A stretch of DNA of 64,000 nucleotides, taken from positions 6,758,001-6,822,000 of the forward strand of contig NC_135768.1 in NCBI RefSeq assembly GCF_052425735.1, in the 5' to 3' direction. Shown piece by piece: positions 22,201 through 31,200 of this stretch. This DNA is from Oculina patagonica. Taxonomy: Eukaryota. The position numbers were made by a program. Numbering within the stretch: position 1 is the first letter of the stretch; every line of letters starts with the position of its first letter.

Positions 22201-25200
22201 CGAGAGGTTTCCGCGCGTAAGAATCACATGGCCACTTTTTTCTGAAAGTGGCCGGATAAATGCCTGCTTTCGTATGCAAATATTTATTTCGTTCCGAATG
22301 TTCAATAAAATAAACCCAAACCAGTTCGTGAATGGCATTATGGCAATACGATGGATATAATATCTAAGTGTCCTTAATGAGATGCATTACTCCACTCGAC
22401 TGATGACAATTTTACGACTCGTATCAGGTCGTGTATATTGGACATGGATGATTCGGGGAAAGAACGAACAAACCAAACAATTATTCGCTTTTTAATTGAT
22501 CGACAAGGTTTGCTCTGTGCATTTTAATTGGAGATATTGGGTTAAGATTGAGAATATACACCTTATACAGGTTTGACATTAGACATCTAATAGACGTCTA
22601 AAGTGTATAATTATACACTTTATACAGAATAGACATGGAGATATTGGGTTAAGATTGAGAATATACACTTTATATAGGTTTGACATTAGACGTCTAATCA
22701 GACGTCTAAAGTGTAAAAAAAACTTGTACTGAATATATAGAATTGATAGCACGTGCCAGTCAAGAGTGTATAAATATACAGCAATAGACATATATTAAAT
22801 AATAAAGATGGAAAAATTTAAGTTCGGTAATAAATATTGAGGATGAATTATTAAAAATGAACGGATGGGAAAAAAAACGGGGAGGGGGGGGAGTTGTATA
22901 AGTATACACTTTATACCTCAGGGATATAAACTGTCTATTCTGCAATAACGGGCCTCACTCGAAATCGAAAATAGTTAGAGAAGATGCTTTGAAAGTAAAA
23001 GAGTGATATATTAATCCCTGGTGGAGAGGGGTAACGGTCTTCTCATTCCACTCATCCTTCTCGTAGTCGTAGCATTCAACAATGGTATTGCAATAACATT
23101 CCCGATAGCCACCCAGAATGTACAGTGTTTTGTTGACTAATACCATGTTGCCATGGATACGAGAAACCGTTAAACTTGCTATAAACTGCCATTCATCTGT
23201 CATAATGTTATACATCTCACAGGTTTTCAATTCTTTTCTGTCTTTACCAACTCCAGCAGCAATGAAAATTTTTTCGTTTGCGGCTACACCACACGCGCCA
23301 GATCTCGCTTCTTGAATGTCTGCAATCTTCTCCCATTTGTTTTTTACCGTGTCGAGTCTTGCAGCTTCTGAAAGGACTGCGGAAAACGTAAGGCCTTCCA
23401 ACGTACATCCTCCAATAGCATATATGTACGTATCAAAGGCAATAACACACGAACGATGTCTGTTCACCCAATCCAAGGACGAAGAGACTGAATTTGAAAC
23501 AAGGTTGTATCTAGAAACCTTGCCGGCCGGGGTTTCATACCCTCGAGTAATAAAATCGGAAATAACTTGAAACACATTTCGCCGTTGACAGGCACGACCG
23601 CCTCAAAACCCTGTCCATTTCCAACTAAGACCTGGTTTGGATCTCTTTTTGCCCACGGAACTGGACACCATTGATTCATGTCTGGGTCATAACATTGCGA
23701 TTCATAAATGTCGTGGAGAATGGCAAATAGCTGACCTCGATATGTAACTGCGTGTCTTATACGTCTAATCGGTTCTCCATGACACTCGATCGCAGGCAAG
23801 CAGCACCAATCATCTCTGTCAGGAAAATAACAAAAACAGTTGAAAGGTTCGTGCACTGGACAAGCCACAACAACACATGACTCATGAACCTTCCTTGGCC
23901 GATGTGGCCGCGGCACATGACAATCGCTCGCCCGATCAACCCACTTCAATGCAGCAGCCACACTGTCACGGCAGTTTTCATTCTCATTGACAAGATCGTT
24001 GGTCACGACATCACTTACTAAAAAGTCACGCGACATACAAGTCAGTCGAAGGTGACGAAAAAGTTCGGCGAATTTGACGCCTCGCTGGCTCTTTTCTCGA
24101 TTAATCCATTTCAGTAGAATTTTAAAAACATCTTCCTCTTCGTCTATGACTATGTCGTCGCTAGATATCCATTTTGCAACTTCATGGCTCGACAAACTTA
24201 AAAAGTCCTCTGATTCCGCGAATGCTATAAAGTTTAAACTGATGAATTTCCGGCAACTGGCGATAAGCTCTTCGCACATGTATTTTTCCGCCATGTTATA
24301 ATATGAAATACAGTTAGAAATGGACAACTTTTGCTCAAGAAATTTCTGGGCGACAGACTTCAAGCTTTCAAGGCACAAATAATCTGCCACAGCGATTAAG
24401 TCTTCAGCTTTCTCTTAAGTTAAAGCCTTTATGCTACCAGTGTAAATGAACTCCAAAATGTCTGCCATTTGAGACTTGGTTAACATCTCCAGTCGAACAA
24501 CTCCTTCTATACTCTCCTTCATGTTGCTGTTAAAAAGATTCTCAAAGAAAGGACTTGCTTCTGAAAGAACATGCATGTGGGCCTTGAACTCTTTGCCATT
24601 TTCCGCCACCAAAGTTACGTCTCGATCTTCGTTCTTCGTATCAAGTCGATGCATGCTGATGAAGTTGTATCAGAACGCTAGTGCAGCCTCTCTCTGCTCA
24701 ATTATTTCAATCGACTTACTCCCCCAAATTGTGGCCTTGTAGAAAATGATGTTACCAAGGACTGTAAATTAATATCAGTTATTTGTACAGTATCTTATCG
24801 AATAACTCCAGTTTCTGTAGTTGCGTGCCTTATTCCACAAGAAAACTGAATAATTTTCCGCAACTCATGTTTATTCTAGTTGAAATTGTATTAAAACAGC
24901 CGGAAGCATAAAACAATGACCAATAATTATGGATCATATTATTGGCCAAGCATGTCCGGTCAAGATGATATTGGTTAAGTTCTTTTTTCGCGTGTTTATG
25001 GCCGAAAACGAAGTCGAGGTCCATTAACACGCAAACAAAGTACGAGGCCAATATTCCGCCATCTCGACCGAACAAGATCTATGAAACTACGGGTGTTGCT
25101 GTGGGGTCAATCTTGATAGAGTAGGTTCCAGGCATAGCTCCAGATGCACTTTGAAGATCCGGATGTTGGTCAAGCAGTTCCTTAAGTTTTGGATCTACAT

Positions 25201-28200: not shown

Positions 28201-31200
28201 TCTTTTGTCTTACTTCAGGATGGTGAGTTCCTATTGGGACCCATGTTATCTGAAGGTAGTATATTGACCTCGTGCTAGATTATTATATCTAACTTGGATG
28301 GTGAGTTTCTTATGAAACTCATGTTATCTGAGGGCAGCATATTGACCTCGTGCTAGATTATTATGGCTTGCTAAGATGGTGAGTTCCTAATGGAACTCAT
28401 GTTATGTGAGGCAGCATATTGACCTCGTGCTAGATTATTATGTCTTACTTGGATGGTGAGTTCCTTATGGAACTCATGTTATCTAAGGGCAGCATATTGA
28501 CTTTGTGCTAGATTATTATATCTAACTTGGATGGTGAGTTTCTTATGGAACTCATGTTATCTGAGGGCAGCATAATGACCTCGTGCTAGATTATTGTTAC
28601 ATATGCACAAAGTGAACGCAGTGCCGTAGCAGGGTAAAATAAGTGGGGGGCACGCGAGCGCCGGAGGCGTGAGCTGCTAGGGGGGTCTGGGGCATGCCCC
28701 CCAGAAAATTTTGAAATCTAGAGGCTTGGAAATGCTATTTCCAGCATTCTCCAACGAAGAGCTATTTGTGATTTACGCATATCGCGAATTATTTACTTCC
28801 TATCTCAGCAAACCAATGCACATTGAAGAGAGTATAATACTTGCAAGGTCAATTACAAAATAGAAAACCGACTGTCTCAGCAGCAAATGTTTTACTTTTC
28901 CGAGTCATCATAGTGAGTTGGTAGTTATTAAACTGTCTGAGTTGCCTTAGAGGCAAACGTAGAGTTCATCAGTACGTCGTTTTTGAAAACTTCGCAAAGT
29001 TTAGTTAGTTCAAAATGTATATCCGCAGTACAAATATGTGAATTTCATATATTCATTTAGTTTGTTTAGTTTAGTTTTTGGCTGTTTAATATTGTTGTGC
29101 ATCACCCTACGTACGTTAAAAAATGAAAAGAAGTACAAATGTTATTGTTTCAAACCCCTTGGGAGATAAATTTTATTTTCAACATGTATTTCATACCGGT
29201 CTGTTTTTACTTTTTGGGAAAAAAACTGGGGGGCACCCCCCCCCCCGGCCCCTCCCCTTGCTACGGCACTGGAACGCCATGTTAAATCTCAAAACCGCAT
29301 GTTTTTAATGTGAACAATCATACATAATGGCCAGCGGTATGCCATACATAACATCCCCCACTCAAAAATTCGAGAAATTAAGATAATTCATCTAGCAACG
29401 AAACAAAGTAAAAGACACGATTTCGTGAAAGCCGTCAAAATCTCCACAAAAGAGTCAAATACAGTCCCGTTATTAGGCGATGACATCGCCTTGTGTCATG
29501 AGGCGTCGGTGGGACAAATTATGTATTTGATGAGTTCTATTGAATTCAGTGGACAGATGATCACATCTCTACATTTTTTTAATACAATGGGCTTGTGTTG
29601 TCGGTCTGTGAACAATTACGTGACAGCTCTTGACCTTCGCATGTCGCACGCGAGAAGTATCGTATATATCGAAAGTCACCCTACAAGAGAACGCAACTTT
29701 TTGCTGAGCAGTCATTCAACACAGAAGTTGTCAGCTACCTTTTTTGGTATATGTAAATTTTTGACAAATTTTCTGAAAATTATTTTAGACCCCTTGGAGG
29801 GGTCATGAATGGTCCATCAAAAGTTTGCAGTGCTCGCAAAATTACGCTTCTGCTCGGAATGCTCGCAAAATTTTAGTGGGTGCTCGTTTGCTCGTGCTTG
29901 CATATTTTTACAATTGCTCACATGCTCGAATTTTTCTTGGAGGTAGCTTTTTGAAAAGTGTTCGTTGCTCTCAAGACTAACTTTTGTCAATGCTTGTGCT
30001 CGCAAAGAAAGACGCTCTGCTCGCATGCTCGCAAATGCTCGCAAAGACCATTTGATACCCCCCCCCCCCTTGGGAAACGTCATCGCCTGTGGACGTTACT
30101 GAAGAAAATTATTTTCATAGACTTTCACTGACTTTTTGGAGAACTCTTCATCTAATTCCACTTGTAAAAATTCTTCCAGCACTCTCCTCCCGTAGTTTTT
30201 CAAACTTTCGTCTTGAAACAAGCAAAAAATAAAATCACCCTTGATAACTTCACAGGCTCGCTTGAATTGATGCAAAAGATGAGCTTCGTACAGAACTGGA
30301 TCACTTGTGTAAACAGTCACACACCAAAGCATACATTTAACTCTCGGCGATAACACACCGAAGCTGACCGATCTAGGAAAACCACCATCGCCACATTTCT
30401 CGACAGCGAAATACAAATCGATTTCCTGCTGCAAATAATCGATATTTGATCGTAGAGGCTCGATAGGGGTGAAATCCAGGACGATGACCTTGTCTGGGAA
30501 CAATGTCTGTGACACGGGGCTAGAGAAAATAACATCGCATATGTATTCTTTAGTGCAAGCTTCAATCTGAATGGAATTATCAGCTGTAGAAAATTGATGC
30601 GAGCGTAAAGACGTCCTTTTAACAGAAGCGCTCAAAATTTCCAACTGCGTAAGTTTCGTTACCGAATGACTCGTGATCGTTCCGTCGGTTTCGAATTGTT
30701 CTCGACATACGCTTGGATATTGTCTTCGTATAAACTCATTCATCGTTTGTGATAACTGTTTATAAACACCTTTTCCGCGGAATTCTGCTAAAGTACGTCC
30801 TGCTCGAAGGATTGCTGTTCTTCCTTCGTCGACAATGGAACACGAAATCAAACCCACAAGTTTCTCGTCTAAATAGGCAAGCATAACATCTAACTTGTCC
30901 ATGTTCATCCACGCATGGTATCGCAATGGAAGATAGTCGTGTCCATGGTAAATTCCTTCTGACAGTTTCAGGATCTCTTCGAAGTCACTTGGTTTAGCAA
31001 GGCGAAAATCTAACTCTAGGTTGAAGTGGTCCATCACTGAAGGGTACGGTTAGCGTTAGGTTTTTTCTTCCTTTTTAAAACAATCCTCGCTTCGCTGGAT
31101 CTCGCGTGACGTGAATATTTAATATGATGATAGCCTGTTGCGATGGTGACGTCATTTGTCACGCTGGCTACGTTTTATAGTATTATATGCAATTTGAGCA

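What the first reader, a model, noticed from the sequence alone, without database searches (positions are those of the whole stretch)
25079..29400. Inside-out LTR retrotransposon: PPT-LTR-[satellite]-LTR-PBS-gag with the same 5-bp target on both inner edges
Seen, reading the minus strand: PPT (29363-29354), LTR (29353-28595), about 15 satellite units, LTR (26621-26522), PBS, gag, protease. The LTR outer ends face each other. Both abut the satellite at exactly the same phase with ATTAT (26622-26626 and 28590-28594), like a 5-bp TSD turned inward. No satellite lies on the far sides. Inference, three options: (a) a Gypsy family that targets this satellite site-specifically and inserted twice; (b) one insertion duplicated by unequal exchange; (c) element plus satellite looped out as an extrachromosomal circle and re-integrated here permuted. 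Option (c) best explains the missing outer satellite and would be a way for satellites to seed new loci.
Basis: partly seen in the sequence, partly recalled or inferred. Interest (0 to 1): 0.7.

Follow-up and report, generated by a model that had tools for sequence, protein, structure and literature searches.

The report
Truncated Gypsy pair flanking a satellite
Two same-direction end pieces of a coral Gypsy-type retrotransposon face each other across a short satellite array and touch it at the identical 5-base site; this is most likely the eroded junction of a duplicated or twice-inserted element, an ordinary kind of repeat debris.

Summary
Read on the minus strand it runs as follows:
- a PPT-like run (29363-29354);
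- a 100-bp-type LTR (29353-28595), split by a nested 653-bp TIR element;
- 15.08 units of a 78-bp satellite, split by a 797-bp non-satellite insert;
- a second 100-bp LTR (26621-26522);
- TGG, a leader, and a broken gag-protease remnant ending at the first residues of RT (26466-25085).

Both LTR outer ends meet the satellite at the same ATTAT. The protein remnant is 88-93% identical to full-length Ty3/Gypsy polyproteins from stony-coral data. Only residues 9-452 of 1348 are present. No RT, RNase H or integrase lies anywhere in the window.

Host genes sit 416 bp to the left (BTB-BACK-Kelch) and 732 bp to the right (Hisat-like acetyltransferase).

Both elements are truncated, so "no outer satellite" says nothing. 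The circle's own prediction, that the missing coding part continues on the other side, fails. An LTR-free patch of the same satellite lies 31 kb away.

No eukaryotic genome DNA could be searched, so the origin stays undecided. My lead is one insertion duplicated by unequal exchange and then eroded (0.4). Interest is low to moderate.

The parts
25085..26466 (-). Broken remnant of the Gypsy polyprotein gene: gag, protease and the first residues of RT, truncated at the 3' side.
   Evidence: tblastn gives P0001 residues 9-452 of 1348 at 88.1% identity, and P0003 residues 1-464 at 75.4%, with outer bounds 25085-26466. The 164-aa ORF piece is 93% identical to P0001. Counts against P0001 are 2 frame changes and 5 stops along the one-frame HSP. 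Pfam shows only a sub-threshold zinc knuckle, E 0.1.
26467..26521 (-). Leader with a PBS-like start (TGG immediately after the LTR).
   Evidence: Read directly from the sequence. The peptide encoded across the LTR end and PBS recurs at the N-termini of relatives P0020 and P0032. The priming tRNA is not identified. The only tRNA in the window (Thr) matches 4 bases.
26522..26621 (-). LTR1, the 5' LTR of the gag-bearing copy. 100 bp with TG...CA ends.
26622..27328 (.). Satellite block A, 9.1 units of 78 bp. It starts with ATTAT (26622-26626) against LTR1.
   Evidence: TRF score 1023 with 86% matches. Real units are listed.
27329..28125 (.). Non-satellite insert in the array. An 85-bp hairpin-prone piece (27329-27413) is followed by a 712-bp element with 23-bp perfect TIRs (27414-28125). 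Satellite phase is kept across it.
   Evidence: unit register
28126..28594 (.). Satellite block B, 6.0 units. It ends with ATTAT (28590-28594) against LTR2.
   Evidence: TRF score 726
28595..29353 (-). LTR2, the 3' LTR of the other copy. The same 100-bp LTR in two pieces (28595-28618 and 29272-29353) around a nested element.
   Evidence: 24/25 and 76/82 identical to LTR1
28619..29271 (.). Nested 653-bp TIR element inside LTR2, with 13-bp perfect TIRs and a 5-bp duplication GAACG. Partial relatives lie at 59552-59626, 50819-50869, 53689-53747 and 55882-55932.
29354..29363 (-). PPT-like purine run (GAGTGGGGGA on the minus strand) directly upstream of LTR2.
   Evidence: Comparable 10-mers occur at 160 of 127546 positions.
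60222..60561 (-). Separate, inverted and more diverged patch of the same satellite (about 4.5 units) with no LTR beside it. This is context, not part of the block.
   Evidence: TRF 72% matches; 79% complementary to 28310-28548; flanks read

Best explanation
What it is (shown)
- The block is the tail-to-head junction between two same-orientation copies of one Ty3/Gypsy family with 100-bp LTRs.
- It lies in a short 78-bp satellite array between two host genes of a stony coral.
- Both copies are reduced to stumps. One is PPT plus 3' LTR. The other is 5' LTR, PBS, gag, protease and the first residues of RT.
- Two TIR elements inserted later.

How it arose (inferred)
1. One element integrated into the AT-only tract of a satellite unit and made the 5-bp duplication ATTAT.
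2. Out-of-register exchange between the satellite on its two sides duplicated the element together with the array. The order became satellite, element, satellite, element, satellite. The 3' LTR of one copy and the 5' LTR of the next therefore face each other across the array, each still next to its own ATTAT.
3. Illegitimate deletions later removed both element bodies and the outer satellite.

The block has no present function. It is decaying repeat DNA.
For: Element identity
- The domain order in relative P0001 is RT 509-652, RNase H 715-841, integrase 947-1106.
- PBS-like and PPT-like sites lie on the outer sides only.

Single origin
- The junction phase is identical and the array is an integer number of units plus 5 bp (15.08 units). 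One integration explains this without invoking target specificity.
- Mean unit identity is 84.1% within the left block, 85.8% within the right block and 85.2% between them. Phase is kept across the 797-bp insert. This fits a homologous process or an original array, with no end-joining scar.

Age
- The structure is old enough for erosion. The LTRs differ by 6 substitutions and 1 indel per 100 bp. The gene has 2 frame changes and 5 stops along the one-frame HSP. There are two nested insertions.

Setting
- A second short patch of the satellite, without an LTR, lies in the same gene cluster. A native short array at this spot is therefore plausible.

Literature
- Unequal exchange and deletions spanning tandem junctions are described as common for LTR elements in McGurk and Barbash 2018 (PMC5932611, passages read).
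Against: - The explanation needs four local events: one insertion, one duplication and two large deletions. All of them occurred in a 5.4-kb gap between intact-looking genes.
- No trace of outer satellite or of the far LTRs is left.
- The right-hand copy retains nothing demonstrable beyond a 10-nt PPT-like run, so its status as a former full element is inferred.
- Nothing in the window separates this origin from two same-phase insertions or from an imported fragment.
- The 6-7% LTR divergence is compatible with all three.
Confidence: 0.4

Rival explanations
1. Imported fragment, including the reader's circle model. A piece of DNA read PPT, LTR, satellite, LTR, PBS, gag, protease. It came either from an extrachromosomal circle (one element plus about 15 units, formed by loop-out or by integration into a satellite circle) or from a tandem element-satellite-element locus elsewhere. 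It was lost at both ends and then joined or copied into a break between the two host genes.
For: - It needs one local event instead of four.
- It explains directly why no satellite lies outside the block and why host genes are only 416 and 732 bp away.
- An integer number of units plus the 5-bp site is what a circle carrying one integration would give.
- Generation and reintegration of eccDNA has been proposed for the spread of satellites to new loci (Sproul et al. 2020, PMC7403614, passages read).
- Circularisation followed by re-insertion is one of three routes to tandem TEs in PMC5932611.
Against: - The direct prediction of a once-cut circle fails. Residues 453-1348 of the polyprotein are absent from the right side and from the whole window. 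At least 2.7 kb must additionally have been lost.
- No target duplication or shared repeat links the two outer flanks.
- The satellite also sits nearby without an LTR, so a vehicle is not required.
- No donor could be looked for.
Confidence: 0.25
2. Two independent integrations of the same family, in the same orientation, into the same phase of two different units of one array. This would follow from a sequence or chromatin preference of the integrase. Erosion followed as above.
For: - The shared site lies in the ATTATTAT tract that begins most units (10 of the 15 listed), so a preference for AT-rich sites would make same-phase hits likely.
- The 797-bp insert also entered the array in that same tract.
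- Double insertion at one target is a documented source of tandem TEs, with the target kept in the junction (PMC5932611).
- The family is abundant in coral data. The clusters of its full-length relatives hold 74, 107 and 52 member sequences.
Against: - Without targeting, two copies within about 1.2 kb, in the same direction and at the same one-in-78 phase, is improbable.
- The second satellite patch in the window carries no insertion.
- No chromodomain or other targeting domain was found by Pfam in relative P0001.
- It still needs two deletions.
Confidence: 0.2
3. Composite LTR. A read-through transcript ran from one element through the satellite into the next LTR and was reverse-transcribed. 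This created a variant whose functional LTR is LTR-satellite-LTR. The block is one such long LTR shared by, or left over from, tandem or circular forms.
For: - The PPT-like run on one side and the PBS on the other side of a single LTR-like unit are what a shared LTR shows.
- The block's outer ends are TG and CA.
- Relatives such as Ogre elements do carry short tandem arrays, and arrays 'surrounded by two direct repeats' are reported (Vondrak et al. 2020, PMC7004042, passages read).
Against: - No second copy of the composite exists in the window.
- N-terminal extensions of relatives P0020 and P0032 translate the ordinary LTR end plus PBS, and they start inside the 100-bp LTR. They give no sign of satellite there, though they cannot see past the LTR start.
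- In Ogre the array lies inside the element, upstream of the PPT. Here it lies between the LTR outer ends.
Confidence: 0.07
4. Assembly artefact. A normally arranged element in a satellite was permuted or mis-joined by the assembler.
For: Satellites and LTR pairs are classic sites of mis-joins. The scaffold contains a gap elsewhere (N run 43214-43421).
Against: - The two LTRs are distinct copies. They differ by 6 substitutions and 1 indel, and only one carries the nested element.
- The array has individually distinct units with no collapse.
- Both outer junctions join to unique sequence without N.
Confidence: 0.05

Closest known systems
Head-to-tail tandem TE dimers and their eroded 'internal-to-internal' junctions (McGurk and Barbash 2018, PMC5932611; passages read)
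   Same: Two copies lie in the same orientation, tail facing head, with the target site kept at the junction. Deletions spanning such junctions are reported as frequent for LTR elements.
   Different: There the two copies share an LTR or are separated only by the target duplication. Here about 15 satellite units lie between the two target copies. Their Supplemental Table S2 on LTR-LTR junctions could not be seen because supplements are closed.
Short tandem arrays carried inside Ogre/Tat Ty3-gypsy elements, a source of satellites (Vondrak et al. 2020, PMC7004042; passages read)
   Same: A Gypsy-type element is physically coupled to a short satellite-like array bracketed by direct repeats.
   Different: In Ogre the array is internal, in the 3' UTR upstream of the PPT and 3' LTR. 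Here the PBS and PPT lie on the far sides of the LTRs, so the array is outside both elements.
eccDNA generation and reintegration as a route for satellites to reach new euchromatic loci (Sproul et al. 2020, PMC7403614; passages read)
   Different: That work concerns satellite-into-satellite insertions with microhomology and no LTR element. Here no donor, no circle and no microhomology could be shown.
Ty3/Gypsy lineages with very short LTRs, such as the Mag lineage (recalled, not from any call)
   Same: The domain order is RT, RNase H, integrase in the close relative. There is a 5-bp target duplication and an LTR of only 100 bp.
   Different: The lineage was not assigned, because no reference set of Gypsy clades was available in these tools.

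Membership tests
Ty3/Gypsy LTR retrotransposon (Metaviridae-type) | Polyprotein with the order protease, RT, RNase H, integrase | tested here: inconclusive
   This is met in the 93%-identical relative P0001 (RVT_1 509-652, RNase H 715-841, integrase 947-1106). In the window itself only gag, protease and the RT start survive.
Ty3/Gypsy LTR retrotransposon (Metaviridae-type) | Direct LTRs with TG...CA ends | tested here: met
   Two 100-bp copies about 93-94% identical, both with TG...CA ends
Ty3/Gypsy LTR retrotransposon (Metaviridae-type) | PBS after the 5' LTR and PPT before the 3' LTR | tested here: met
   TGG lies at +1 after LTR1 and a purine/G run lies at -1 before LTR2. The tRNA partner is not identified.
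Ty3/Gypsy LTR retrotransposon (Metaviridae-type) | Gag with a CCHC zinc knuckle | tested here: inconclusive
   Pfam zf-CCHC gives E 0.1 and 13.2 bits against a cut-off of 20.8. Homology to the gag part of Gypsy polyproteins is strong (E 3.5e-96).
Ty3/Gypsy LTR retrotransposon (Metaviridae-type) | A 4-6 bp target duplication flanking one element | tested here: not met
   The two ATTAT copies lie on the inner edges of two different stumps. No single element here has both ends.
Tandem TE dimer by double insertion | Target site preserved in the tail-to-head junction | tested here: met
   ATTAT lies at both LTR outer ends at the same unit phase, but with 15 units in between.
Tandem TE dimer by double insertion | Two independent integration events | not testable with these tools
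   This needs other family copies and their flanks.
LTR-element-borne internal tandem array (Ogre/Tat type) | Array lies inside the element, between the coding region and the PPT/3' LTR | tested here: not met
   The array lies between the outer ends of the LTRs. PBS and PPT are on the opposite sides.
TRIM/LARD-type non-autonomous LTR element with the satellite as its internal region (plus-strand reading) | PBS and PPT on the inner sides of the LTRs | tested here: not met
   On the plus strand the first TGG is 17 nt after LTR1. The 15 nt before LTR2 hold 6 purines (read directly).
Re-integrated extrachromosomal circle | Circular permutation of a normal element-in-satellite arrangement | tested here: met
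   The order is PPT, LTR, ATTAT, satellite, ATTAT, LTR, PBS.
Re-integrated extrachromosomal circle | The two outer ends are contiguous in the donor (a single opening) | tested here: not met
   Polyprotein residues 453-1348 are missing from the right side and from the window.
Re-integrated extrachromosomal circle | An empty pre-integration site or a donor locus exists | not testable with these tools
   No eukaryotic genome DNA was available.
Animal retrozyme / hammerhead tandem repeat | Ribozyme motif in the repeat unit | tested here: not met
   An Rfam E-value scan of 24000-30500 gave 2 matches, both weak microRNA-like (E 0.24 and 0.85), and no ribozyme.

The most novel reading that the evidence does not exclude
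The block is a linearised, end-trimmed piece of an extrachromosomal circle made of one Gypsy element plus 15 satellite units. The circle formed either by loop-out between the flanking units or by integration of the element into a satellite-derived circle. It was then re-inserted between two genes. On this reading, circles of LTR retroelements act as vehicles that carry ready-made satellite arrays to new euchromatic sites in a coral genome.
Probability: 0.15. Interest if true: 0.6.

Novelty: new member of a known kind. Interest (0 to 1): 0.3.

Why it matters
If the ordinary reading holds, this is one more example of how elements caught in tandem arrays are duplicated and then whittled down. It is useful mainly as an annotation: a coral Gypsy family with 100-bp LTRs and a 5-bp target in an AT tract, and a dispersed 78-bp satellite.

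It would matter more if a genome-wide table showed one of two things:
- strict targeting of this satellite phase, which would be a new site-specific Gypsy family in Cnidaria;
- an empty orthologous site, which would be direct sequence evidence that a satellite array reached a new locus together with an LTR element.

The second idea is so far proposed mostly from indirect evidence (PMC7403614).

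Tried and rejected
Searches that led nowhere
- Pfam on the remnant's ORF pieces gave nothing above cut-off. A first call with in-frame stops was returned as an error. Identity therefore rests on protein searches.
- The genome-wide LTR test could not be run. The LTR-end pattern found 0 stretches in genome contigs. Polyprotein P0001 gave 54 pattern matches there, 0 confirmed.
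- A search with the 60-aa ORF that runs from LTR1 into the satellite was meant to find other copies of the same junction. It scored 2 of 4 candidates. Both are satellite-only ORFs without the LTR part. This shows only that the satellite exists on other records.
- The right-flank ORF 29425-29805 has no relatives (1 candidate, 0 scored) and no Pfam hit. The right boundary of the element is therefore undefined. Three-frame reading of 29354-30110 shows nothing like the conserved C-terminus of the relatives.
- The flanks 24391-25100 and 29354-30100 have no similarity to anything else in the window after self-hits were dropped. The tandem paralogues could not be used to mark where host sequence begins.
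- An imperfect inverted repeat (24953-25001 with 25021-25074) abuts the left junction. Whether it is cut by the junction could not be decided.
- No coral satellite literature was found: 'satellitome' with 'Scleractinia' returned 0 papers.

Readings rejected
- The PBS does not match the window's only tRNA (Thr), with 4 consecutive bases.
- The unit-by-unit identity matrix shows no break between the two satellite blocks, so it does not discriminate between origins.
- A retrozyme or hammerhead reading of the satellite is rejected.
- A TRIM-like reading on the plus strand is rejected.

Full report
**Source and setting**

Nothing in the window looked human. The nearest named proteins are hypothetical proteins of the stony coral Oculina patagonica, so I take the window for scleractinian coral DNA. 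The N run at 43214-43421 was left as it stands.

The finding lies in a 5.4-kb gap between two host genes, both on the minus strand.
- On the left is a BTB-BACK-Kelch gene. BTB is at 24418-24669 (E 5e-16). BACK and Kelch lie in ORFs 23464-24390 and 22955-23575. These three pieces were scanned one by one and were not joined into a gene model.
- On the right is the first of a tandem family of Hisat-like GNAT acetyltransferase genes, at 30096-31037.

**Check of the observation**

LTRs
- LTR1 is 26522-26621, 100 bp with TG...CA ends.
- Each of its terminal 25-mers occurs exactly twice in 64 kb, with 0.00 expected.
- A permissive BLAST of the whole LTR finds only LTR1 and two pieces of a second copy (3 of 3 hits).
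- The second copy is not a 759-bp LTR. It is 28595-28619 (24/25 identical) plus 29272-29353 (76 of 82 columns, one 1-base indel).
- A nested 653-bp element (28619-29271) interrupts it. That element has 13-bp perfect TIRs and a 5-bp duplication GAACG.
- Overall the LTRs differ by 6 substitutions and 1 indel per 100 bp.

Satellite
- Between the LTRs lie 9.1 and 6.0 units of a 78-bp satellite. Together they are 1176 bp, or 15.08 units.
It contains a 712-bp element with 23-bp perfect TIRs.
- Satellite phase is kept across that insert.

Junctions, PBS and PPT
- Real units begin ATTATTATG and end GCTAG.
- LTR1 is followed by ATTAT (26622-26626) and LTR2 is preceded by ATTAT (28590-28594). The two LTR outer ends therefore cut the unit at the same phase. 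With one copy of ATTAT removed, the two satellite sides join into a normal unit boundary.
- On the minus strand, TGG follows LTR1 at once and GAGTGGGGGA precedes LTR2 at once. Comparable purine/G-run 10-mers fill 160 of 127546 positions, and TGG 1.2% of positions. I defined the 10-mer class after seeing the site, so these figures are indicative only.

**What the coding part is**

Pfam did not recognise the ORF pieces. The best result was a zinc knuckle at E 0.1.

Protein searches did recognise them.
- The 164-aa ORF at 25484-25975 (minus) found 27 proteins among 96 candidates.
- The best is P0001: 1348 aa, 93% identical, E 3.5e-96.
- In P0001, Pfam places RT at 509-652, RNase H at 715-841 and integrase at 947-1106. 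That is the Ty3/Gypsy order.
- The exhaustive search found 2203 proteins at E up to 0.001.

tblastn of three full-length relatives against the window gave these results.
- P0001 residues 9-452 match at 88.1% identity. P0003 residues 1-464 match at 75.4%.
- The outer bounds are 25085-26466.
- Nothing else in the window has E below 4.5.

Only the first third of the polyprotein gene is here: gag, protease and the first residues of RT. Against P0001 the remnant shows 2 frame changes, counted over 75 matched 24-residue windows. It also shows 5 stops along the single one-frame HSP, and the 3' truncation. Part of that HSP runs through the out-of-frame stretch, so fewer of the 5 stops lie in correctly framed sequence.

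The peptide encoded across the LTR end and the TGG recurs at the N-termini of relatives P0020 and P0032. The LTR end and primer site are therefore family features. Both of those ORFs start inside the LTR and show nothing of what lies beyond it.

**What is on the outer sides**

- Left of 25085 lies 416 bp of unique sequence with an imperfect inverted repeat next to the junction. The BTB gene follows.
- Right of 29363 lies 732 bp of unique, apparently non-coding sequence before the stop of the Hisat-like gene. There is no Pfam hit, no relatives for its one long ORF, and no likeness to the C-terminus of the relatives.
- Neither flank resembles anything else in the window, the satellite included (self-hits dropped).
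There it is negative. At the DNA level it stayed unchecked.

**A third patch of the satellite**

About 4.5 inverted, more diverged units lie at 60222-60561 (72% matches; 79% to block B). They have unrelated flanks and no LTR. The patch is about 1.4 kb from another Hisat-like paralogue.

Two ORFs on other public records also translate this satellite. The satellite is therefore a dispersed short-array repeat that reaches gene-rich DNA without this element.

**Interpretation**

The arrangement is a circular permutation of the normal order: satellite, ATTAT, LTR, body, LTR, ATTAT, satellite. Deletions alone cannot produce that from one insertion. It needs a second copy, or import of a permuted piece.

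The routes are:
- (b) unequal exchange between the satellite on either side of one insertion;
- (a) a second integration at the same phase of another unit;
- (c) a circle, or another fragment, brought in from elsewhere;
- a composite LTR made by reverse transcription of a read-through transcript. That would turn LTR-satellite-LTR into one long LTR;
- a mis-join in the assembly.

McGurk and Barbash list recombination, circularisation with re-insertion, and double insertion as routes to tandem TEs. They also note frequent junction-spanning deletions for LTR elements (PMC5932611, passages).

**Weighing the routes**

Both copies are stumps, so the places where outer satellite would lie are gone under every model.
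- A once-opened circle predicts that the right side continues where the left side stops. About 900 residues of coding sequence are missing instead.
- Import still has parsimony on its side, with one local event against four in a short intergenic gap.
- Origin in place has two points in its favour. A native LTR-free patch lies nearby. The array also shows no scar: unit identity is 84.1% within the left block, 85.8% within the right and 85.2% between them, and phase is kept.
- Double insertion becomes likely only if the integrase prefers the AT-only tract. The 797-bp insert also entered that tract, which shows it is an easy target. No other family copy could be examined.

I therefore rank the origins as follows:

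| Origin | Confidence |
|---|---|
| Unequal exchange plus erosion | 0.4 |
| Imported fragment or circle | 0.25 |
| Double insertion | 0.2 |
| Composite LTR | 0.07 |
| Misassembly | 0.05 |

The steps shown are the anatomy, the family, the truncation, the nested insertions and the same-phase junctions. The order and kind of the events are inferred.

**Comparison with what is known**

- The block works like an eroded tail-to-head TE junction (PMC5932611).
- It differs from the Ogre/Tat case, where the array is internal to the element (PMC7004042).
- The circle idea for seeding satellites is already proposed in print (PMC7403614).
- No paper on coral satellites was found (0 papers; 26 papers, none on this topic among the 15 listed, judged from titles and abstract starts).

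**What stayed unchecked**

- The distribution of the LTR and of the satellite in the source genome.
- Any donor or empty site.
- Long-read support for the assembly.
- Supplements of the cited papers.
- The closed collections metagenome contigs and viral contigs.

Noticed in passing
window 30096-31037, 33336-34403, 35406-36347, 37724-38641, about 61989-62776 (minus strand); inverted relatives about 49231-57559: A cluster of Hisat-like GNAT acetyltransferase genes. Four minus-strand ORFs carry the Hisat_C domain (E 1e-14 to 1e-19). A fifth direct copy lies near 62 kb. Three or four related copies in the opposite orientation lie at 49-57 kb, 73-82% complementary.
   Followed up: partly
window 22955-24669 (minus strand): A BTB-BACK-Kelch (KLHL-like) gene lies in three ORF pieces, two of which overlap in different frames. 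This could mean introns or a decayed gene. The pieces were scanned separately and not joined.
   Followed up: partly
window 28619-29271: A 653-bp TIR element is nested in LTR2, with ends CAGTG...CACTG and a 5-bp duplication. Partial relatives lie at 59552-59626 (88%), 50819-50869, 53689-53747 and 55882-55932, next to the acetyltransferase paralogues.
   Followed up: partly
window 27329-28125: The insert in the satellite has two parts. An 85-bp piece can fold back on itself, and its left arm resembles the satellite's own start. A 712-bp element with 23-bp perfect TIRs and no clear target duplication follows.
   Followed up: partly
window 45664-46548 and 47526-47994: A foldback-like structure has 405-nt arms that are 98% complementary and 977 nt apart. 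The arms are built largely of 16/32-bp tandem repeats with 7-bp repeats at the outer ends.
   Followed up: no
window 5101-5487 / 6432-6818 and 39642-39951 / 42670-42979: Two further long inverted-repeat pairs (387 nt and 310 nt, both 98%) probably mark TIR-type elements. The second pair lies just before the N run at 43214-43421, which was left untouched.
   Followed up: no
window 18251-18326 (+): A tRNA-Thr (GGT) gene is the only tRNA in the window. It does not match the element's primer site.
   Followed up: yes
window 24953-25001 / 25021-25074: An imperfect inverted repeat with arms of about 50 nt directly abuts the left end of the retrotransposon remnant. It may be a small hairpin-type repeat cut or bounded by the junction.
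   Followed up: partly
window 1-196: The window opens inside a 25-bp tandem repeat (6.3 copies, 96% matches), followed by an 8-bp repeat.
   Followed up: no
proteins P0032 and P0002 (relatives, not in the window): Other family copies are also decayed. P0032 reads from the LTR end and primer site straight into mid-gag, which indicates an internal deletion. The Oculina gene model P0002 follows the same shifted frame through protease as the window copy.
   Followed up: no
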